DNA from: a virus
UHGV virus genome: UHGV-1732480
DNA length: 21,195 bases
Strand: one strand, 5' to 3'
In this document: one piece after another, positions 1 through 21,195 of the stretch
How the letters are laid out: every line of letters begins with the position of its first letter
Numbering within the stretch: position 1 is the stretch's first letter
Made by a program: the position numbers and the translations under genes
Notes under the pieces: generated by a model
The model's input: only the letters and a program-made list of their open reading frames with translations
Told to the model about the DNA's origin: nothing
The model's database searches: none

Positions 1-2604
<2,604 letters not shown>

Positions 2605-4639: not shown

Positions 4640-4968
4640 CAGTTCACCACCTGCTTAAACTCCGCGCTGAACTCAACGCGCAACATCCCGACCCGCGCAG
4701 ACCACCCGGCACAGGTCACCTTTATCTGCCGGTATGCATAGGGTGGCTTCCACAAAAATGCCTTCCAGCCACCGTGCTCTGCCAGGAACGCTTCCAGATG
4801 CCGGGCCTCCTCCCGGGTCACGGAAAGCGTCACCCTGTATGTTTTCAGGTCAGCATTCAGCCCTGCCGCCATACGCTGTGAGTACCCGTCACCAAAACGC
4901 ACTTCACGCACCGATGGCTGCGAGTTCACCTCCATATCCGGCTTCACTTTCCAGCGAAAGGTTTTCAT
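4639..4968 (-). CDS. M: Tail tip protein M
   Basis: 109-aa ORF between H and L, the size and position of lambda gpM. Confidence 0.88.
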   Translation of the reverse strand: MKTFRWKVKPDMEVNSQPSVREVRFGDGYSQRMAAGLNADLKTYRVTLSVTREEARHLEAFLAEHGGWKAFLWKPPYAYRQIKVTCAGWSARVGMLRVEFSAEFKQVVN

Positions 4969-7538
4969 CCACCGCTCCCTGATAACATACCGCCATCACG
5001 CAACTGCAGCCGGAGTTCATCCTGTGCCCCCTTGCGGGCCATCTCATACACCGCTTTCATCAGCTGCGGCCCTGCCCGCCCGTTGGGGCCGTCGTTCTGA
5101 ATCACCACGTGATTGTTCTGATTAAAATTAATGCCTTCAGCCCGCCGCATCTGCGCCGGACTTCCGGCACCGCCCACATAACCACCTTCCGCATAGCCCC
5201 GCATCAGGCGGTACAGGTTGCCGACACCAATCCGGCTGGTAGCCTCCTTCGTGAAGACAAACTCCCCGCGATGAACAATCCCCGCAGGTTCATATTTACC
5301 CCCCGTCCCCGTAAATCCCCCGGTCGCGAAATGGAAGTTCGCCGCCGCAGCCTGAATGGCCGTCCCCGTGGAGGCAGACGCACCACCACCGAAAGCACCG
5401 CCAATGGCGCTGCCGATACTCCCGACTATCCCCACCATCGCCTGCTTCAGAAAAATCTCTGTCAGCATGGACAGCACAGAACGGGTGAAACCACGCCAGT
5501 TCTGTTCGCTGCCGGTCAGCATCGCTGCCATATTCTGTGCAATACCGTCAAAGGTCTGCGTGGCCGCGTTTTTAACCTGCGAAAAACTGTCCGTCGCACT
5601 TTCCGCCCACTCGCCCCAGCCGGACTTCATCCCGGCCATCCAGCTTCCACGAAGCTGCTCCTCCGCAGACCAGGTGTTCTTCAGTGCAGATGTGGCCTTC
5701 GCCAGCGCAGCCGGATTATCACCGTACACCTCACGAAGGCGCTGCTCTTCCGACTCCCGCTGCGCCTGACGGTCGGTGAGTCCGCGGGCTTTTGCGCTGA
5801 TTGCCGCCTGCTTCGCGCTCTGCTGCTGTTCAAACCGCGCCGCCTGCTGTGCCAGCTCATTCAGCCGTTTCTGGTGTTCAATCTTGTCGCCCAGCTCAGC
5901 CAGCTGGCGTTTGTACTCCAGCGTTTCTTTCTCATGGGCCAGCAGGGATTTTTCCTGCTCAGATAACTGCCGTTTCGTGGCGGCCTCTTTCAGGACCACA
6001 TACTGATTTTCCGCTTCCCATAAATCCCGGCGCTGCTGGCTGATTTTCTCATTCACACCGCTGTGTTTTTCCAGCGTCCTGAGCTCGGTTTCAAGCGCCA
6101 GCATGGCTGCATGCGCCCGGTCTTCCTGGCGCTCACCGGCAGACACCTTCACACCTGACGGCTTTTTCAGCGTCGATTCATAATCCTTTTTTGCCGACGC
6201 CATCAGCGTGTTGTAATCCGCCTGCAGGATTTTTCCGTCTTTCAGGGCCTTATTCAGCTCTTTCTGACGGGCGGTATATTTATCCAGCGGCGTCTGCAGG
6301 CGCTCATACGCCTTCTGCGCCTCTCCGGTATACTTCAGCTGTGACGCCTCACGCTCAGCCCGGTCCCTTGCCGCCAGTTCACCGGCTTTTTCCATATCCG
6401 ACTGCAGCGTGGCCGCTGCCAGACCCAGACGGGCATTTTCCCGGTCATCCCATGCCCCCTGAAGGTTCGCACGAAAAGAGGAGGTCTTTCCCCGGCGCTG
6501 GCTCCGGCTCTGGTACCACTGCCATTTTTTATCCGCCTCATCAAATGCCTTCTGCGCACTGGCGAGCATATCCGCTGAGGATTCAGGACGACCGATATCC
6601 AGAATGGCATCCCACATCGATTTGAATGCCTTCCCTGTTTTATCCGCCCAGGTCTCCAGTGTTCCCATGTTTTCTTTCAGGCGACGGGTCTGCTCATCAA
6701 AGCCTTTCGTGGCGATATCGTTCGCCGCCTGCAATGCCCCGGCCTCGTCTCCGGAACGCTGCAGCTGTGCAACATACGCAATCTGCTCTGCCGTCACGTT
6801 ACGGAACTGGCGCGCCATCGCCATCAGTCCCGACGTCGGGTCAGTGGTCAGCTTCCCGAAGGCTTCAGCGACTTTATCCACCTCCACACCGGATGCAGAC
6901 GCAAAACGCGCGACACTCTGGTTGATGGCATCAAACTGTTCACCACCACGCACACCGGCATTCATCAGGGCTGCCAGTGACTCTCTCGCCTGGTTAAACG
7001 TCAGCCCTGCTGCCTGCCCGGCTCTTGAGAGAGTCAGCATACGATCGGCAGTCAGTCCGGACTGATTACCGGAAAGAACCAGGGTTTTATTAAACGCTGA
7101 AAGCGTGGAATCTCCCTGGTACCAGGCGTACACCAGCGCACCTGTCGCCACCGCCAGCGAGGTGACCCCGACCATCGGCAGGGTGATCGCACCGGCGAGC
7201 CCCCTGAACATGGGGATCATCCCGCCGAAGGAGTCCTTCACCTGACCGCCCTGTTGCAGCAGGATCAGCCAGGGATTCTGACCACCGGCAAGCTGCGTGG
7301 CGATATCCGTAAACTGTGCGGGCAGGGTTCGCATGGCCGCTTTATACTGCCCGACGGAAATCCCGGCTTTTTGTGCAGCCAGCGCCTGGCGGCTCAGGCC
7401 CTGTTCAACAGCACTGGCGGTTTTTCTGGCGTCGGTATCCAGACCTGAAAAATGACGCCTTACCCGGCTCATCTGCTCATCGAAACGGACAGCATCCAGA
7501 CTCAGGTCAATAACAAGATCACCAACCGGCTGGGACAT
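4965..7538 (-). CDS. H: Tail tape measure protein H
   Basis: 857-aa ORF MSQPVGDLVIDLSLDAVRFDEQMSRVRRHFSG... matches recalled lambda gpH along its length. Confidence 0.93.
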   Translation of the reverse strand: MSQPVGDLVIDLSLDAVRFDEQMSRVRRHFSGLDTDARKTASAVEQGLSRQALAAQKAGISVGQYKAAMRTLPAQFTDIATQLAGGQNPWLILLQQGGQVKDSFGGMIPMFRGLAGAITLPMVGVTSLAVATGALVYAWYQGDSTLSAFNKTLVLSGNQSGLTADRMLTLSRAGQAAGLTFNQARESLAALMNAGVRGGEQFDAINQSVARFASASGVEVDKVAEAFGKLTTDPTSGLMAMARQFRNVTAEQIAYVAQLQRSGDEAGALQAANDIATKGFDEQTRRLKENMGTLETWADKTGKAFKSMWDAILDIGRPESSADMLASAQKAFDEADKKWQWYQSRSQRRGKTSSFRANLQGAWDDRENARLGLAAATLQSDMEKAGELAARDRAEREASQLKYTGEAQKAYERLQTPLDKYTARQKELNKALKDGKILQADYNTLMASAKKDYESTLKKPSGVKVSAGERQEDRAHAAMLALETELRTLEKHSGVNEKISQQRRDLWEAENQYVVLKEAATKRQLSEQEKSLLAHEKETLEYKRQLAELGDKIEHQKRLNELAQQAARFEQQQSAKQAAISAKARGLTDRQAQRESEEQRLREVYGDNPAALAKATSALKNTWSAEEQLRGSWMAGMKSGWGEWAESATDSFSQVKNAATQTFDGIAQNMAAMLTGSEQNWRGFTRSVLSMLTEIFLKQAMVGIVGSIGSAIGGAFGGGASASTGTAIQAAAANFHFATGGFTGTGGKYEPAGIVHRGEFVFTKEATSRIGVGNLYRLMRGYAEGGYVGGAGSPAQMRRAEGINFNQNNHVVIQNDGPNGRAGPQLMKAVYEMARKGAQDELRLQLRDGGMLSGSGG

Positions 7539-15443: not shown

Positions 15444-15646
15444 AACCTCACTCCCAGCGGACGACGGCGACGTCGGGTTGTCCCCAGTACCGACTCCGCA
15501 TCATTGATCGCCCGGTTAAGCTCATCCAGAGAAGCCTCCGTATATTCAATTCTGCGACCATCTTTCTGGACAGACACCACCCGTTTACCGGTTAATAAAT
15601 CAAGGCGCGCCTGACGCAGCGCCTGCAGTTCAGCGACTGTAACCAT
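15440..15646 (-). CDS. W: Head-tail joining protein W
   Basis: 68-aa ORF MVTVAELQALRQARLDLLTGKRVVSVQKDGRRIEYTEASL... matches recalled lambda gpW. Confidence 0.9.
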   Translation of the reverse strand: MVTVAELQALRQARLDLLTGKRVVSVQKDGRRIEYTEASLDELNRAINDAESVLGTTRRRRRPLGVRL

Positions 15647-17481
15647 TCACTCCTCCGGACAGCTTCGCTGCCAGTTCTTTAAGGGTTGGCCGGGTCGTCT
15701 CTTCTTCCCGGGATTTTGCCAGTACAGCCAGATCAAGCTGCCAGCGTTGCACGGACACACGTAATGCCGCATAGGCATACACCAGGCAGTCCAGCGCTTC
15801 GTTACGCCGCTTTTTGTTATCCCACAGCAGACGCATCTTTCCTTTTTCCCACTTCTCCACAAGCTCTTCCGCGACCAGTTGCTGCGCCTCTGTCTGCGAA
15901 AAAATCTCCGGATCATCAGGAAAACGGATGGCATACGACGTGGCTTCATCCGCAGGAGTGGGATCGGCTTTCATACGGGCATAGAGAATTTCTTTTGCGG
16001 TGTCCGTCCCCACTTCACACAGATACACGCCCCGCTGATTGCGGGTTTTCGGCATGGTGATCACCGGCTTGCCATAGACAGATGCGCCTTTTACCGGCAG
16101 CACCCGGAAAACACCGTGTTTTTTTGACCTCTGATAGACAATTTCACCATCGATCCCCCCGGTGTCCCAGCAGACACGGGAAATGGTCATTTCGGTTCCG
16201 TCTGCATGGCAGTATTTTTTGTTGATCGCCGCATCCACACGTAACAGCGTCTCTTCCTCATCGGGACGGCCCATAATGATGATTTTATCCACCAGAAAAG
16301 CTTCCTCTCCCGGTGCCCATCCCCAGACATACATCTCAAAACGGTTTCGCTGCGAGTCAATGCCCGCCGTCAGATAAACCACCCGGGCTGGCACCGCCGC
16401 CGTGTAATGCACGACCTTATCCATCAGTACCTGGTGATCGAGTTTTTCGCCCACGGCCTCTTCCCAGGTCTCGCCCAGCGTGGTGTTCACAAAGGTTTTC
16501 AGGCCGTTGGGATCTTTCAGTGCATCCAGCCAGTCATAGACTATCTGTACCCAGGTGGTGAACGGACTGTACGCCGTCCAGATATGGAACGTGATGGAGC
16601 GCGGCGGCGGAATTTCATTATCCGCGGCGCTGAAAAACGTCAGACCGTCACGGGTCCACATCCCCGTGTTTTCACAGATCCTTACACCGCAGATTTCGCG
16701 TACACCGCTCTTGTAAGCACGCCATGCACTTCCGCAGATACTGCGCCTCCCCACAGTGCGGGCAGGGCACATAGAAACGCATGAAATGCGCCGACTCGTT
16801 GGCCGCTTTTTCGATCTGGCAGGTGCCTTTGATTTTAGGCGTCGAGCCGCGAATGGATTTGGGCCATACAGAGCCCTCAATACGTTTATCCCCAAGCAGG
16901 GTTGGCGACCCCTCTTTTTCGACATCCGGTTCGAACGAGGAAAGTTCGTCATAGCAGACCACGTCCACGGATTTTTCACGGTAGTTTTTAGCGGCAGCCC
17001 CGCCCAGGCACCAGAAGCCCACGCCCGATGAAAAACGTTTCAGCGTGAGGGTATTATCACGATGTTTACGCCCAAACCACGGTGCAAGATCGAGTAAAAC
17101 CGGCACATCCCTGATCGTGGGTTCCACATGAGATTTCATAAAATCTTCAGCAGCAGAATCCGTGGGCTGGAAAAGAAGGCTGTTGCGTGATTTATGCTCA
17201 ATAAAATAAGCCTCCACTCCCAGCAACATCTTTGTATAACCAACACGGGCAGATTTAATCAGATTAACAGTGCGGATCCGGTCATTCCCCATGCTGTTCA
17301 TGATGGCAACCTGAAACGGCAGTGTTTCCCACCGCCCCGGGGTGTAAGATGACTCTTTCGGAAGGTAATAATGTCGATCTGCCCACTGAACTGTCGTCAG
17401 AGGGACAGGAATTTTTAGCGCAAGGAGGCCGGTTGCTATCGCTCCTGCAGAATTAGCCGCCCTCAGTTCGTCTGAAATCAT
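15630..17481 (-). pseudogene. A: Terminase large subunit A, split between two reading frames (frameshift in about 16681-16734)
   Basis: ORF 16672..17523 carries the lambda gpA-like N-terminal part (…WADRHYYLPKES…RWETLPFQ…PCPHCGEAQYL) and ends in a stop. ORF 15630..16979, in another frame, carries the C-terminal part (ICENTGMWTRDG…ALDCLVYAYAALR). Start set at ATG 17481 (MISDEL…). Confidence 0.75.
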
Positions 17482-18001
17482 CAATCCACCTGCGCACATT
17501 CTCACCGGCTTCAGAAGCCACATCGGATGCTTTCGCGATTTCAGTTTTCACAGCATCAAGATGTACGGGTGATATATCAGGGTATTTACGCTGCAGTGTC
17601 TGAGGGACACGGACAAGGATCCCTGATATATTCTGTGCCACTCGCTGAAAGATGTAGGTAAATAACTCCGTCTCGAGGACAAGGCCTTCCTCACGAGCAT
17701 TTTTCAGCTCCTGTGCATCGGCCTGTGCCTTCGTCAGTCGGTAACGTTCGTAATCAATGGTGCAGGGCTGAAGGTCTGATTCGCTGGCAGCCCTCAAATC
17801 CTCGATCTCTTTACGGAGTTTTTCGTTTTCAATATCAGCTTCCCTCTGCGCATACCACTGAATGGCAGCAGTTGTATCAAAAACTGATTCAGTCCCTTTC
17901 CCTCCACCAGAAACTAGTGGTAACCCCTGACTCTGCCAGGCGGTGATGGTCCTGACATCAACGCCAAAAATATCGGCCAGTTTTTTCTTATTGACGTTCA
18001 T
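17453..18001 (-). CDS. Nu1: Terminase small subunit Nu1
   Basis: 182-aa [39 protein letters not shown]... matches recalled lambda Nu1; 3' end overlaps A start as in lambda. Confidence 0.93.
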
Positions 18002-18190
18002 ACACTCCCCCGGGAACCAGAAAGGATCTGAAAATGGCGTTTTCTAACAAAAACAGCCTTTGTCAGATCCTTTTATATTTTTAAAATTCTATTGATAATC
18101 AATCAGTTAAAAAGAAGAAGAACGGATCTGATTTTTCCCTAAAAATTTTCATAAATAGCGAAAACCCGCGAGGTCGCCGCCCCGTAACCG
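18002..18190 (-). other. cos: cos site: cosB (18002-18164), cosN with the lambda 12-nt cohesive-end sequence (18171-18182), and cosQ-side flank
   Basis: Plus strand CATAAATAGCGAAAACCCGCGAGGTCGCCGCCC is the reverse complement of the lambda left end GGGCGGCGACCTCGCGGGTTTTCGCTATTTATG, sitting immediately upstream of Nu1. Confidence 0.9.
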
Positions 18191-18388
18191 GTCGGATCGC
18201 CGGAAAGGACCCACGAAATGATAATTATTATCATCTATATAAGGTTTATCACAACATGTGTGTACGCCATCAAACCACGAGAAATAATCAATTATGACGC
18301 AGGTATCGTATTAATTGATCTGCGTCAAATTAACGTAAAAGCAACTTCAGATAATACAAATCAGCAACACTGAATATGGGGAAACATT

Positions 18389-18574
18389 ATGTCATCAAAG
18401 AACAGAACCCGCAGAACAACAACCCGCAACATCCGATTTCCAAACCAGATGATTGAACAAATTAACATCGCTCTTGATCTGAAAGGTTCAGGAAACTTTT
18501 CAGCGTGGGTTATTGAAGCCTGCAGAAGAAGGCTGTCAACAGAGAGTTCGGGTATGAATTACATAATTAAGTAA
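18389..18574 (+). CDS. Small (61 aa) predicted ribbon-helix-helix-like DNA-binding protein, unknown role
   Basis: ORF with GGGGAA 6 nt upstream of ATG. Basic N-terminal arm, then beta-strand-like RNIRFPNQ, helix, G-x-S/N turn (KGSGNFS), helix: an RHH-like pattern. Opposite strand to the late genes, in the AT-rich island. Confidence 0.5.
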   Translation: MSSKNRTRRTTTRNIRFPNQMIEQINIALDLKGSGNFSAWVIEACRRRLSTESSGMNYIIK

Positions 18575-18706
18575 CATGGTGTTCACAGAACACGCAGTTA
18601 CCGGACACATCAGTTTTCCATTCGCTCCCTGGCAGTACAGGCTTCCCCTCTGACGGGATAGCCTGAAAAAATAACACAGAAAATTATTTGTTATAATTAA
18701 TATAAC

Positions 18707-18847
18707 TTACTCAAAAAAAAGCGACGAGAAAATCAGCATCAACGAACAATAAGCGCCAATACGTGATAACAAATGGCAGCCATATTTATCTGCAGTATAA
18801 GCAATGGACAGGATAACCACTCCAGAAACCGTCAGCATAAAATCCAT
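18707..18847 (-). CDS. Small (46 aa) hydrophobic ORF, possible small membrane protein
   Basis: My translation MDFMLTVSGVVILSIAYTADKYGCHLLSRIGAYCSLMLIFSSLFFE; GGGGAAG 6 nt upstream of ATG; AT-rich context where chance ORFs are less common. Below the ORF-track cutoff. Confidence 0.3.
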   Translation of the reverse strand: MDFMLTVSGVVILSIAYTADKYGCHLLSRIGAYCSLMLIFSSLFFE

Positions 18848-19197
18848 TTGAACTTCCCCGGACAAAATCGACTCATCTAAAGATTTACAGCTCTTTTTAT
18901 TATCAATATGTTAAAAGTAAAATAAACAGATGTTCAATAACACGAATACAAAAACGTGCTGAAATTCAATGAATCCATTTCTGTGTCATCAATTAATAGT
19001 GATAAACATCCGGCTTCTTCCACCATCGCACCGGACAGGCGACTATGAGGGGACAACGCCGCGCTCCGTTAACGCGGTAAACCCCGGTGTGTGTCGTTTT
19101 TGATTATCCCCGCACACTCGCGCAGAGGAGTCTCCCTGTCGGGCTGCGGTCTCTGTTAATGCGGGGATACGGCGACAATACCGCGCATCAGCAAAAC

Positions 19198-19671
19198 CTA
19201 TTTCAGGCACTGAGTGCGGATATAGTCCTGCGCCCCTTCCAGCTGCTTCTGCATCAGCATCAACCGTTCTCTGAGAGTGAAATAATCCCGTTCAGCGGTG
19301 TCTGCCAGTTGGGGGCCGGTTGCATTATCCACGCGGGCGGTGCCGGTGGCTTCACGCACGGGACCTGGACAGGTGGCGTTGATACGCAGGCGCTTACGAC
19401 CAGCGGCAACGTCAGCGCGAAGAGTTTCATTTTCAGCTCTCGCATCGGCTAATTCCCTCGAGTATTTTGCATCGAGCGCAGCAACATCGCGCTGGCGCAC
19501 CTGCATATCAGTAATGGTTGCGTTCGCCAGCTTCAGTTCACTGGCTTTGTTATCGCGCTGCGCTTTGTAGGTAATCGCGTTATCACGGTAATGGTCTGTT
19601 GCCATCCACAGCGCTCCACAGGCCACCAGCAGAATAACGATAAACGCGGAAAGCATTCGGTTTATGTTCAC
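19198..19671 (-). CDS. Rz: i-spanin Rz
   Basis: 157-aa ORF with N-terminal TM and ...[45 protein letters not shown]... matching recalled lambda Rz. Confidence 0.9.
19260..19445 (-). CDS. Rz1: o-spanin Rz1 (lipoprotein), embedded in the +1 frame of Rz
   Basis: 61-aa [23 protein letters not shown]... with lipobox VSAC and proline-rich [11 protein letters not shown], matching recalled lambda Rz1. Confidence 0.85.
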
Positions 19672-19799
19672 CCCAGCAGCCCCGACGAAGACAACATCAT
19701 CCAGGCCATGGAAAGAAAAAGAGCAACCAGCATTAGTGAAAATGAAATGCCGACAATTACACAGAGGATCTTCGCCAGCGTTATGAGTTTGTCTGACAT
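19668..19799 (-). CDS. Small (43 aa) single-pass membrane protein, unknown function
   Basis: ATG at 19799 preceded by AAGGGAGGA; protein [43 protein letters not shown]; its stop overlaps the GTG start of Rz (GTGA), suggesting translational coupling. Confidence 0.5.
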
Positions 19800-19813
19800 G
19801 CTTAATCCTCCCT

Positions 19814-19996
19814 TCACGATTTCAACGCAATGACCAGTTTTGCCAGCCCATACAGCATCGGGGACACAGCAACACCGACCGCCACCCACTTAATGGCAAA
19901 AGCCAGTGCTCTGCTGATGTCATCAGTTACAGGCGCTTTCAGTTCAAGGCCGTTTTTCATAGTCAACCTCAACAGAATTCGTTTATACTTTTCCAT
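19814..19996 (-). CDS. Small (about 60 aa) protein with charged N-terminus and C-terminal hydrophobic segment, unknown function
   Basis: [60 protein letters not shown]; AGGGAG upstream. Start uncertain (GTG 20029, ATG 19996 or ATG 19960). Its 3' end holds the SD of the downstream 43-aa ORF. Confidence 0.4.
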
Positions 19997-20030
19997 GTTC
20001 TCCCTTGCCTTATCCAAGGTCAGAAACACA

Positions 20031-20070
20031 AAACCCCGCTTGCAGCCAACAAACGGGGTTTTTACTTTTA
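20031..20070. terminator. Hairpin with flanking A- and T-tracts (CCCCG...CGGGG stem); intrinsic-terminator-like in both orientations, downstream of R
   Basis: Plus strand AAACCCCGCTTGCAGCCAACAAACGGGGTTTTTACTTTT; on the minus strand the stem is followed by TTTTGTGTTT. Confidence 0.45.
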
Positions 20071-20152
20071 TTCACTTAGGTTTTGCCAGTTCTCAGGATT
20101 TCGTGTTATCCGTCCGCATTAGCCAACGTCATTTTTCAACAAAATATTCTGC

Positions 20153-20686
20153 TTATTTGTCAATTCCCCAGCACGCCAGCGCGCTCTCCTGGTCACGCCG
20201 TGAGACCTGTCCATAGCAGTTATTTGAACGAATACGGCAGTCTCTGCCACCGTCCTTAATCCACCAGCGAATCGCCTCACATGCTCCCCTGCGATCGCCA
20301 GCATTAATTCGTCTGTAAAACGTCGACGGGAAACACTTACCGGGACCAATGTTGTACGGACAGAATGACGCGATCCCCGCTTTCTGGGGTTCGGTCAATG
20401 GCACTTTGATGTTTTTCTCCACCCATGCCAGCGCCTTATCACGCTCAATGGCGTTAACCCGGTCGCATTTTTCCTTCGACAACTTCATGCCCGGAACGAC
20501 AGGTTTGCCATCCACCAGGATGGCACCGCGGCAGATGGTCCAGATACCCGCGCCATCACGGTATGCCGTGGTGTGGTTACCTTCCTTTTCATCCAGAAAC
20601 TGGTCGAGAATGTCAGGCGCAGGCGCACCAGCGGCAATCAGCGCCAGAACGGCAGCCGACAGGCCGTATCTGATTTTTGCGTTCAT
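20153..20686 (-). CDS. R: Endolysin R, T4-lysozyme-like (GH24) with N-terminal SAR (signal-anchor-release) domain
   Basis: 177-aa ORF MNAKIRYGLSAAVLALIAAGAPAP...EGNHTTAYRDGAGIWTICRG... The hydrophobic, Gly/Ala-rich N-terminus is typical of SAR endolysins; resembles the lysozyme of Qin/933W-type prophages as I recall it. Confidence 0.9.
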   Translation of the reverse strand: MNAKIRYGLSAAVLALIAAGAPAPDILDQFLDEKEGNHTTAYRDGAGIWTICRGAILVDGKPVVPGMKLSKEKCDRVNAIERDKALAWVEKNIKVPLTEPQKAGIASFCPYNIGPGKCFPSTFYRRINAGDRRGACEAIRWWIKDGGRDCRIRSNNCYGQVSRRDQESALACWGIDK

Positions 20687-20791
20687 GGATATTTATCAGG
20701 ATTTATCGGTTTCTGAGCCCTGGATATGTTTATCAGTTCCAGCCTGTTGCCTCAGGCTGCTAACAGGTCAATACAATCATGAGGATTATTT

Positions 20792-21064
20792 ATGGACAAT
20801 AACACCATTTCTCTACAGGAGTTGCTCGACAGCATTTCCAGGCTTCGGGAAGACGTGAATACCCTTACCGTCGCCTTCTCATATCTGGCATTCTCAATTC
20901 CAAGGGAACAGATGCAATCAACGCTGGCATCAATCCAGTTTGAATCATGCAATCCCAAATGGTCTCAGGAACAACAAGACTCTTTCAGGCGGCTTGCTGT
21001 ATTACTGGATGAAAAATATGCTGGTAAAATTACCATTTCGGCGGACTCTTCAGAGAACCCGTAA
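20792..21064 (+). CDS. Hypothetical 90-aa protein, divergent from R
   Basis: ORF with GAGGA 7 nt upstream of ATG; weak hairpin plus T-run downstream (about 21098-21125); no TM segment; no homolog recognised. Confidence 0.4.
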   Translation: MDNNTISLQELLDSISRLREDVNTLTVAFSYLAFSIPREQMQSTLASIQFESCNPKWSQEQQDSFRRLAVLLDEKYAGKITISADSSENP

Positions 21065-21195
21065 TTATTCCCGGTAGTTTTCCTCTGTAGGTTATCAACA
21101 CATCCTGCGCCTCTAAAATTACGGGGCGCTTTTCCGGCGACTGCTCATCCCCTTCACATAACCCGGCAGCAACATCCAGGAAGACCTGTCTGATG

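What the first reader, a model, noticed from the sequence alone, without database searches (positions are those of the whole stretch)
16672..16979. Large terminase gene A is split by a frameshift
The lambda gpA-like N-terminal and C-terminal halves are in different reading frames and overlap across 16672-16979. The N-terminal frame ends in a stop shortly after the CPHCGEAQYL motif, and the C-terminal frame becomes A-like from about ICENTGMWTRDG. My hand comparison places the shift in about 16681-16734. If it is real, the prophage cannot package its own DNA even though cos, Nu1 and all head and tail genes look intact, which would make it a cryptic or helper-dependent element. It could also be a sequencing or assembly indel.
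Basis: partly seen in the sequence, partly recalled or inferred. Interest (0 to 1): 0.45.

Follow-up and report, generated by a model that had tools for sequence, protein, structure and literature searches.

The report
Terminase gene broken by foreign DNA patch
The DNA-packaging (large terminase) gene of this E. coli prophage really is split, not by a simple frameshift but because 130 bases were replaced by 53 bases that match a housekeeping gene of the gut bacterium Phocaeicola plebeius; the gene is dead, and the patch is either a rare natural capture of foreign DNA or a chimeric sequence artefact.

Summary
Observation confirmed.

It is not a point frameshift. Compared with intact phage-21/lambda-type terminase genes, 130 bp (codons 250-293) are replaced by 53 bp (net -77).

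The filler has no match in 5,426 complete E. coli genomes, phages, plasmids or IMG/VR. It is 54/54 identical to purC (SAICAR synthetase) of Phocaeicola plebeius, in the type strain and 27 other genome/gut-metagenome contigs.

The rest of the window is a natural mosaic of known prophage alleles, nearly identical to a prophage of E. coli DLI.6n. All close natural alleles are intact at this site. The lesion appears in no other public assembly or protein set.

Junction microhomology is not significant, and no shared k-mer could let an assembler cross. The gene is non-functional as written and is not a programmed frameshift. A second private lesion, a -1 frameshift at codon 3-4 of tail gene J, contradicts "all tail genes intact".

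Origin of the patch is unresolved: in-vivo capture of foreign DNA (~0.45), library/assembly chimera (~0.33), in-silico splice (~0.12). An ordinary kind of thing (prophage pseudogene) with an unusual lesion.

The parts
16672..17481 (-). N-terminal fragment of the terminase large-subunit pseudogene. It is 269 aa from the canonical MISDEL start (the ORF extends to an upstream ATG at 17523). It keeps Walker A KSARVGYT (res 76-83), Walker B VVCYDE (174-179) and CPHC (240-243). It then reads 20 out-of-context codons through the filler and stops at 16672-16674.
   Evidence: (GpA_ATPase E=1e-46)
16682..16734 (-). 53-bp filler that replaces 130 bp (CDS nt 748-877, codons 250-293) of the intact gene; net -77 bp.
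16683..16736 (-). 54-bp stretch 100% identical to Phocaeicola plebeius purC (SAICAR synthetase). It is in sense orientation and in purC's own frame relative to the downstream terminase frame. TG at 16735-16736 is shared with the E. coli sequence (2-bp overlap). Base 16682 (A in gene sense) is an orphan nucleotide templated by neither parent.
   Evidence: (SAICAR_synt E=1.6e-71)
15630..16661 (-). C-terminal fragment of the terminase pseudogene: 343 aa from MWTRDG (= residues 300-642 of the intact protein, identical). The frame stays open upstream to 16979. There is no properly spaced Shine-Dalgarno (GGGG abuts the ATG).
   Evidence: (GpA_nuclease E=2e-71)
16745..16774 (-). Three SNPs relative to the DLI.6n allele (16745, 16759, 16774). 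They form a short patch of a different natural terminase allele. 12 intact IMG/VR prophages carry all three, and E. coli M15 carries two.
17453..18001 (-). Terminase small subunit (Nu1-like, 182 aa), intact and identical to WP_001102142.1 of DLI.6n.
18171..18182 (-). cosN core GGGCGGCGACCT, intact.
2258..2265 (-). Start of tail-tip gene J (ATG at 2265..2263). The T-run 2258-2260 is T3 where every relative has T4, giving a -1 frameshift after codon 3 and a stop after 22 aa. This is a second, independent inactivating lesion in the same prophage.

Best explanation
Shown. The gene is a phage-21/lambda gpA-type large terminase turned into a pseudogene by one discrete lesion. 130 bp of coding sequence (codons 250-293) were replaced by 53 bp. 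The lost codons include the CEHHGC half of a CPHC...CEHHGC cysteine motif between the ATPase and nuclease domains. The inserted sequence is a fragment of the chromosomal purC gene of Phocaeicola plebeius, a human-gut Bacteroidales species. The net -77 bp puts the nuclease half out of frame.

Inferred. The two fragments cannot form a working terminase. The Nu1-binding/ATPase part and the cos-cutting nuclease/prohead-binding part are uncoupled, 44 residues are missing, and the C-fragment lacks a usable ribosome-binding site. The prophage therefore cannot cut cos or package its own DNA. With the additional gpJ frameshift it cannot build an infectious tail either, unless a co-resident lambdoid prophage supplies both proteins in trans.

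Most likely origin (inferred, about 0.45). A real in-vivo illegitimate-recombination event in a gut E. coli. A break or single-strand gap in the prophage lost about 130 bp and was sealed with a short captured piece of P. plebeius DNA. This would be end-joining with filler DNA, or an SPDIR-like microindel. The lesion was then tolerated because the prophage is dispensable and already decaying.
For: - Geometry. Both junctions lie in the same gene, in the same orientation, 130 bp apart, with perfect flanks on each side. This is what repair of one local break produces and what random ligation of fragments does not.
- Donor identity. 54/54 identity to P. plebeius purC in 28 loci including type strain DSM 17135; other Bacteroidales differ at 4-10 positions.
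- Shared habitat. Donor contigs and the closest E. coli relatives are mostly from the human gut.
- No assembler route. The longest k-mer shared between the two regions is 12 nt and lies away from the junctions; junction overlaps are 2 and 0 nt.
- Natural backbone. All four TMP SNPs are synonymous and occur in natural alleles. The three flank SNPs occur together in 12 intact prophages.
- Signs of decay. There is a second private inactivating lesion in gpJ. The same terminase is independently broken elsewhere, by IS3 in M15, L071, L076 and L077 and by a GATC duplication in L081.
- Precedent. Replacement of short segments by heterologous, even foreign, DNA is documented experimentally as SPDIR (10.1101/2023.11.22.568220).
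Against: - The lesion is private. It is absent from 5,426 complete E. coli genomes, 50,697 phage records, 72,556 plasmids, IMG/VR, GTDB representatives, JGI/ENA metagenome contigs and about 15 billion proteins. There is no independent replicate.
- E. coli is not readily transformable, and inter-phylum capture of a 54-bp chromosomal fragment is expected to be extremely rare. SPDIR runs at 1e-13 to 1e-12 per locus in wild-type A. baylyi.
- Both SPDIR and E. coli alternative end-joining rely on microhomology. Here it is not significant: exact-run test left p=0.93, right p=0.04; gapped test sum p=0.19. One orphan base sits at the right joint.
- The window's own source record could not be found, so sample type and read support are unknown.
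Confidence: 0.45

Rival explanations
1. Wet-lab or assembly chimera. The organism's terminase gene is intact. The 53-bp patch entered the sequence through a chimeric molecule or read (for example polymerase template switching in an amplified, mixed gut-sample library) or through consensus or polishing in a low-coverage mixed sample containing E. coli and abundant P. plebeius.
For: - The filler comes from a common, often abundant gut commensal, exactly what contaminates or co-occurs in stool-derived libraries.
- The lesion occurs in no other assembly or protein set.
- The backbone is a mosaic of sub-read-length patches of other natural prophage alleles (TMP 5139-5241; terminase 16745-16774), as expected from strain-mixed consensus.
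- A private homopolymer -1 in gpJ is a typical sequencing-error type.
- Inter-genome misjoins are the commonest metagenome misassembly (PMC9661791).
Against: - Graph assemblers cross between genomes at shared k-mers. Here the overlaps are 2 and 0 nt, and the longest shared k-mer nearby is 12 nt.
- Known inter-genome misassemblies switch genome and stay there. They do not insert 54 bp and return to the same gene, same strand, 130 bp downstream.
- Random ligation chimeras would not return to the same locus.
- Only one homopolymer error in 21 kb, and all TMP SNPs are synonymous natural variants, so the sequence is not generally error-ridden.
Confidence: 0.33
2. In-silico splice. The window is a natural prophage sequence in which 130 bp were replaced with 53 bp taken from another record, by a data-handling error or a deliberate edit.
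For: - A replace-segment operation trivially gives same-locus, same-strand geometry with no microhomology and arbitrary lengths.
- The window's own source could not be found in any collection, although every other part of it has near-identical public relatives.
Against: - There is no positive evidence.
- The backbone carries its own natural private combination of alleles, so it is not simply a copy of DLI.6n.
- Donor and recipient share a habitat, which a random splice would not require.
Confidence: 0.12
3. Simple sequencing or assembly indel (1-2 bases) in an otherwise intact gene.
For: The two halves are in different frames. A homopolymer -1 does occur elsewhere in the window, in gpJ.
Against: The alignment shows 130 bp missing and 53 unrelated bp present. 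Restoring the frame would still leave 44 codons lost and 17-18 foreign codons.
Confidence: 0.01
4. Programmed translational frameshift or a functional two-piece terminase.
For: The overlap of the two ORFs is long (308 nt), which superficially resembles recoding arrangements.
Against: - No homologue shares the arrangement. About 1,900 E. coli genomes, 21 phages and 12 IMG/VR alleles with the same flank SNPs all have one ORF.
- The junction is foreign purC sequence.
- 44 conserved codons are missing.
- The C-fragment has no spaced Shine-Dalgarno.
Confidence: 0.01
5. Natural mosaic joint. The 53 bp would be the homologous region of a very divergent terminase allele acquired by recombination between lambdoid phages.
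For: Lambdoid terminase genes are mosaic, and a short patch of another allele lies directly next to the filler. In the N-fragment frame the filler even reads C-x2-C (CMAC) after CPHC.
Against: - The filler is 54/54 identical to a Bacteroidales purC gene.
- It has no match in any phage, IMG/VR contig or E. coli genome.
- It is out of frame with the downstream half.
Confidence: 0.02

Closest known systems
Phage 21 gp2 / lambda gpA large terminase subunit (Pfam GpA_ATPase PF05876 + GpA_nuclease PF20454); intact orthologue WP_001348272.1 (642 aa) in E. coli DLI.6n and 118UI
   Same: Flanks are 99.6-100% identical at the DNA level, with the same domain order. Walker A and B, the nuclease domain, the overlapping Nu1 gene upstream, the W and portal genes downstream, and cosN are all in place.
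   Different: Codons 250-293 are replaced by 53 foreign bases, so the reading frame is broken. This is a pseudogene of the family, not a functional member.
Other inactivated copies of the same terminase in E. coli prophages: IS3-family insertion in strain M15 (NZ_CP185789.1, annotated 'incomplete') and in L071/L076/L077; GATC duplication in Logan contig ERR14375821_39586
   Same: The same gene in the same prophage family was independently knocked out while head and tail genes remain. This is ordinary prophage decay.
   Different: Those lesions have familiar causes (IS insertion, 4-bp tandem duplication). Here the lesion is a deletion plus a filler of inter-phylum origin.
SPDIR (short-patch double illegitimate recombination) microindels, Harms et al. 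2016, as summarised in bioRxiv 10.1101/2023.11.22.568220
   Same: A short chromosomal stretch is replaced by a short heterologous stretch whose donor can be identified. Extragenomic foreign DNA can be the template. The patch size is within the reported 3 to ~100 bp range (53 bp inserted).
   Different: SPDIR joints lie in microhomologies or extended microhomologies. Here neither exact nor gapped microhomology exceeds chance. The deleted tract (130 bp) is longer than typical. SPDIR has been demonstrated in naturally transformable Acinetobacter baylyi, not E. coli.
E. coli alternative end-joining (Chayot et al. 2010, as cited in PMC4872102)
   Same: A RecA-independent repair of a chromosomal break that deletes sequence around the break.
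   Different: A-EJ is described as joining at microhomologies and giving deletions, often large. Capture of a foreign filler with an orphan nucleotide is not its described signature, and microhomology here is at chance level.
Inter-genome translocation misassembly in metagenome assemblies (metaMIC, PMC9661791)
   Same: Sequence from two unrelated genomes of one habitat is joined in one contig.
   Different: There is no shared repeat or k-mer at the breakpoints. The contig returns to the original genome after only 54 bp, at the same locus and strand.

Membership tests
gpA-type large terminase (lambda A / phage 21 gene 2) | N-terminal GpA_ATPase domain with Walker A and Walker B | tested here: met
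   Pfam PF05876 E=1e-46 on the 269-aa fragment; KSARVGYT at 76-83 and VVCYDE at 174-179.
gpA-type large terminase (lambda A / phage 21 gene 2) | C-terminal GpA_nuclease domain | tested here: met
   Pfam PF20454 E=2e-71. The 343-aa fragment is identical to residues 300-642 of WP_001348272.1.
gpA-type large terminase (lambda A / phage 21 gene 2) | Both domains in one continuous polypeptide of about 640 aa | tested here: not met
   Two ORFs in different frames. Codons 250-293 are replaced, net -77 nt. All relatives have a single 642-656-aa product.
Programmed ribosomal frameshift | The two-frame arrangement is conserved in homologues | tested here: not met
   None of 1,943 E. coli records, 21 phage records or 12 allele-matched IMG/VR contigs has it.
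Programmed ribosomal frameshift | Frames differ by +/-1 with no loss of coding sequence at the shift site | tested here: not met
   130 nt lost and 53 foreign nt gained.
SPDIR microindel | A short recipient segment is replaced by a short heterologous segment with an identifiable donor | tested here: met
   53 nt replace 130 nt; the donor is P. plebeius purC, 54/54.
SPDIR microindel | Both crossover joints lie in microhomologies or extended microhomologies | tested here: inconclusive
   Left joint: 2-bp overlap (p=0.93). Right joint: a 6-nt GCGGTG match nearby (p=0.04) but out of register, with an orphan A. Gapped test sum p=0.19.
SPDIR microindel | The event arose in vivo at a replication fork from single-stranded donor DNA | not testable with these tools
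   Requires reads, a culture or experiments.
E. coli alternative end-joining product | A deletion joined at microhomology | tested here: inconclusive
   A deletion is present, but a filler is inserted and microhomology is at chance level.
Assembler inter-genome chimera | Breakpoints lie at sequence shared by the two genomes (at least k-mer length) | tested here: not met
   Junction overlaps are 2 and 0 nt. The longest shared substring within +/-0.5 kb versus 8 kb of the donor locus is 12 nt, away from the joints.
Assembler inter-genome chimera | Anomalous read coverage or pairing at the breakpoints | not testable with these tools
   No reads are available and the source record was not found.

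The most novel reading that the evidence does not exclude
A gut E. coli repaired a break or gap in a resident prophage by capturing a 54-bp fragment of chromosomal DNA from Phocaeicola plebeius, a member of a different phylum. That would leave a natural, datable footprint of inter-phylum uptake of 'micro' DNA by illegitimate recombination in the intestine. It would be a wild example of the heterologous microindel (SPDIR / filler-capture) class, in a species not considered naturally transformable.
Probability: 0.4. Interest if true: 0.6.

Novelty: new member of a known kind. Interest (0 to 1): 0.3.

Why it matters
As a prophage feature this is routine. Lambdoid prophages in E. coli commonly lose terminase function, and this one is simply defective. 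It has two independent knock-outs (terminase and gpJ) and at best depends on co-resident helper prophages.

The only unusual point is the nature of the lesion. If read data confirm it, it is direct sequence evidence that very short fragments of DNA from an unrelated gut commensal can be written into an E. coli chromosome without homology. That process has been demonstrated experimentally only in Acinetobacter, and it is nearly invisible to standard HGT detection.

If the lesion is an artefact, it is a useful warning. Chimeras of only about 50 bp can sit inside otherwise perfect contigs and create false pseudogenes.

Tried and rejected
1. Intragenomic template for the filler (template switch or quasi-palindrome). 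There is no k>=11 match in the window, and local alignment to the 27-kb DLI.6n locus on both strands scores within the shuffle range. Rejected.
2. Filler from another E. coli, phage or plasmid sequence. No match in E. coli genomes at E<=10, phage records, IMG/VR or enterobacterial plasmids. Rejected.
3. The three SNPs beside the filler as error-prone repair scars or donor-templated changes. They are a natural allele, found in 12 intact IMG/VR prophages and partly in M15 and L075. Rejected.
4. Finding the window's own source record. I tried exact-protein look-ups of the N-fragment with three alternative starts, the C-fragment, portal and tape-measure proteins, plus eight junction-spanning gene calls. 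The source was not found, so sample type remains unknown.
5. Recurrence of the chimeric peptide tail in 5.8 billion protein clusters. The only hit is an ordinary partial terminase without the tail.
6. Significant junction microhomology. Not found with either the exact-run or the gapped statistic.
7. A solved structure to assign a role to the deleted 44 residues. No PDB relative by sequence. Structure prediction was not run, as it would not change the verdict.
8. Reading Chayot et al. 2010 directly. The paper is not held, so it is cited only through PMC4872102.
Full report
**1. The observation**

On the minus strand, the ORF listing finds a 283-aa ORF at 16672..17523 and a 449-aa ORF at 15630..16979. 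The first ends ...CPHCGEAQYLRKCMACLQERCTRNLRCKDL*. The second becomes terminase-like from ...ICENTGMWTRDG. They overlap over 16672-16979 in different frames, exactly as described.

Pfam assigns the first to GpA_ATPase (E=1e-46) and the second to GpA_nuclease (E=2e-71). Upstream is an intact Nu1-type small subunit (17453..18001). Downstream are gpW and the portal gene.

**2. What the break is**

Megablast of the gene against phage records and complete E. coli genomes gave hits in two pieces. Each covered 93-97% of the query and spanned 77 more bases in the subject.

I aligned the window to the intact genes of E. coli 118UI and phage 21 and ran exact diffs. The intact gene has 130 bp here (AAATTTGGCGATGAATCC...AACGGGCGGT). 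The window instead has 53 unrelated bp at 16682-16734 (sense strand: CGGAAGTGCATGGCGTGCTTACAAGAGCGGTGTACGCGAAATCTGCGGTGTAA).

In the 642-aa reference protein the lost stretch is CDS nt 748-877, codons 250-293 (KFGDESTPFGLKWEKDSPESVFYLCEHHGCVIHQSELDQSNGRW). This includes the second cysteine pair of a CPHC...CEHHGC motif. The net change is -77 nt, hence the frame change.

**3. Background of the window**

The whole 21,195-bp window matches a prophage of E. coli DLI.6n (NZ_CP103974.1) at 100.0% in two pieces. A base-by-base comparison leaves only these differences:
- a 1-bp deletion at 2261;
- SNPs at 5139, 5175, 5217, 5241, 8202 and 10940;
- the terminase lesion with three adjacent SNPs (16745, 16759, 16774);
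- nothing at all in 16775-21195.

The four tape-measure SNPs are all synonymous. They are absent from 4,280 copies in complete E. coli genomes. They do occur in natural prophage alleles in IMG/VR: 79 contigs carry the 5139+5175 pair, and L095 carries all four plus 8202.

The three SNPs next to the lesion occur together in 12 IMG/VR prophage contigs, all of which have the normal 130-bp segment. E. coli M15 and L075 share two of them and are also intact at this site. At every other discriminating site, up- and downstream, the window follows the DLI.6n type.

So the backbone is an ordinary mosaic of natural alleles, and the lesion is one discrete event superimposed on it.

**4. Origin of the filler**

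The filler has no counterpart elsewhere in the window or in the 27-kb DLI.6n locus above shuffle background. It also has none in complete E. coli genomes even at E<=10, in phage records, in IMG/VR or in enterobacterial plasmids.

A 26-mer from its centre hit 11 GTDB representative genomes and 45 metagenome contigs. All were Bacteroidales or human-gut sequences, and all had the same non-E. coli flanks. Extending the match gives 54 consecutive identical bases (window 16683-16736) in 28 of the 56 loci, including Phocaeicola plebeius DSM 17135. Other Bacteroidales species differ at 4-10 of the 54 positions.

The donor ORF is a 315-aa SAICAR synthetase (purC; Pfam E=1.6e-71). It is independently annotated as phosphoribosylaminoimidazolesuccinocarboxamide synthase in related Bacteroidales records. 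The fragment lies in sense orientation and, relative to the downstream terminase frame, in purC's own frame. That is why the C-terminal ORF reads ...ICGSAWRAYKSGVREICGV....

**5. The junctions**

At the left junction the E. coli and P. plebeius sequences share only TG. At the right junction the P. plebeius identity ends at ...GGTGTA, followed by one base (A) templated by neither parent, then E. coli GGATCTG... A GCGGTG hexamer occurs near the joint in both parents but is out of register.

I compared these junctions with random donor/recipient pairings:

| Test | Left | Right | Combined |
|---|---|---|---|
| Longest exact shared run | p=0.93 | p=0.04 | p=0.08 |
| Gapped local alignment | p=0.66 | p=0.12 | p=0.19 |

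The joints are therefore essentially non-homologous. The longest substring shared by the terminase region and 8 kb of the donor locus is 12 nt, away from the joints.

**6. Is the lesion seen anywhere else?**

No.
- The best E. coli genome hits all carry the intact segment.
- Exact look-ups of the N-fragment with three possible starts found nothing.
- The 343-aa C-fragment is on record only in short contig-edge pieces, or in L081, which has a different lesion (GATC to GATCGATC).
- A search of 5.8 billion protein clusters with the chimeric tail found only an ordinary partial terminase without the tail.
- Eight alternative gene calls across the joints are absent from about 15 billion proteins.

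The window's own source record was not found in any collection. Sample type and read support are therefore unknown.

**7. Functional reading**

This section is inference from established knowledge of lambda-type terminases.
- The N-fragment keeps Walker A and B but then runs into 20 nonsense codons and a stop.
- The C-fragment equals residues 300-642. Its only start (ATG 16661) has GGGG abutting it rather than a spaced Shine-Dalgarno.
- ATPase/Nu1-binding and nuclease/prohead-binding functions are uncoupled, and 44 residues are missing.
- The gene should be null. cos cutting and packaging would then need a terminase supplied in trans.

Trans-supply is plausible, because genomes with this terminase type carry a median of two copies.

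A programmed frameshift is excluded. The arrangement is not conserved, sequence is lost, and the junction is foreign.

The prophage also carries a private -1 frameshift in gpJ. The T-run at 2258-2260 is T3, while all 2,106 copies in E. coli genomes have T4. The reading frame stops after 22 aa. cosN (18171-18182) and Nu1 are intact.

Independent inactivation of this same terminase is common in the family. There are IS3-family insertions in M15, L071, L076 and L077, and a GATC duplication in L081.

**8. How the lesion arose**

Three explanations survive.

(a) In-vivo illegitimate recombination in a gut E. coli (about 0.45). A local break or gap lost about 130 bp and was sealed with a captured P. 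plebeius fragment.
- For: the same-locus, same-strand geometry; the perfect flanks; the shared habitat; the decaying-prophage context. [quoted passage not shown]
- Against: both SPDIR and E. coli alternative end-joining use microhomology, which is not evident here. E. coli is poorly transformable. There is no replicate.

(b) A library or assembly chimera from a mixed gut sample (about 0.33).
- For: the commensal donor, the privacy of the lesion, the strain-mosaic backbone, and a homopolymer error-like lesion elsewhere. Inter-genome misjoins are frequent in metagenome assemblies (PMC9661791).
- Against: no shared k-mer exists to cross on. Typical chimeras do not return to the same locus after 54 bp.

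(c) An in-silico splice (about 0.12).
- For: it explains the geometry and the lack of microhomology trivially.
- Against: it has no positive support.

A simple indel, a programmed frameshift and a divergent natural terminase allele are rejected.

**9. Comparison with known things and novelty**

The object is a pseudogene of the gpA/gp2 large-terminase family. It meets the domain criteria and fails the single-polypeptide criterion. As a prophage-decay event it is ordinary.

The lesion type works like a heterologous microindel or filler-DNA capture. Formal SPDIR membership is inconclusive, because the microhomology criterion is not met above chance. I rate it a new (private) member of a known kind.

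Interest is low to moderate (0.3). It would rise to about 0.6 if read data show the P. plebeius patch is real, since that would be a natural footprint of inter-phylum micro-DNA acquisition by E. coli in the gut.

Read mapping or a single PCR across 16600-16850 (251 versus 328 bp) would settle the question.

Noticed in passing
window 2258-2265 (gpJ start, minus strand): The T-run is T3 where DLI.6n and all 2,106 copies in complete E. coli genomes have T4. This gives a -1 frameshift after codon 3 of tail-tip gene J (MGK...), a stop after 22 aa, and the next in-frame ATG at about codon 31. It is a private second inactivating lesion, or a homopolymer sequencing error.
   Followed up: partly
window 5139-5241 (tape-measure gene 4965..7538, minus): Four synonymous SNPs lie within 103 bp. 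They are absent from 4,280 copies in complete E. coli genomes but present in natural alleles in IMG/VR (79 contigs share 5139+5175; L095 shares all four plus 8202). This is a short gene-conversion tract or a strain-mosaic consensus.
   Followed up: partly
L081 about 1500-1560 (Logan ERR14375821_39586): The same terminase gene is split 285 aa + 343 aa by a GATC to GATCGATC tandem duplication inside the segment that is deleted in the window. This is an independent knock-out of the same gene.
   Followed up: no
L060 2380-3201 (E. coli M15, NZ_CP185789.1); also L071, L076, L077: IS3-family transposase insertions truncate the same terminase large-subunit gene in several otherwise complete copies of this prophage family. 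Loss of terminase is recurrent.
   Followed up: no
window 16661-16662; L082-L090: Eight independent Logan contigs begin exactly at the ATG at 16661, next to a G/T polymorphism at 16662 that distinguishes two common terminase alleles. Co-resident prophage alleles apparently branch assembly graphs here.
   Followed up: no
H102-H104 (PLSDB records NZ_OY725925.1, NZ_OY725812.1, OY726012.1): 160-250-kb 'non-mobilizable plasmids' of Bacteroides finegoldii, Parabacteroides distasonis and Phocaeicola massiliensis carry the housekeeping gene purC. They are probably chromosome fragments filed as plasmids.
   Followed up: no
window 18000-18215 (minus strand): The cosN core and adjacent bases are conserved with phage 21. 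The region between cosN and the Nu1 start (the cosB sites) is only about 60-70% alike, suggesting a different cosB/Nu1 specificity from phage 21 itself.
   Followed up: no
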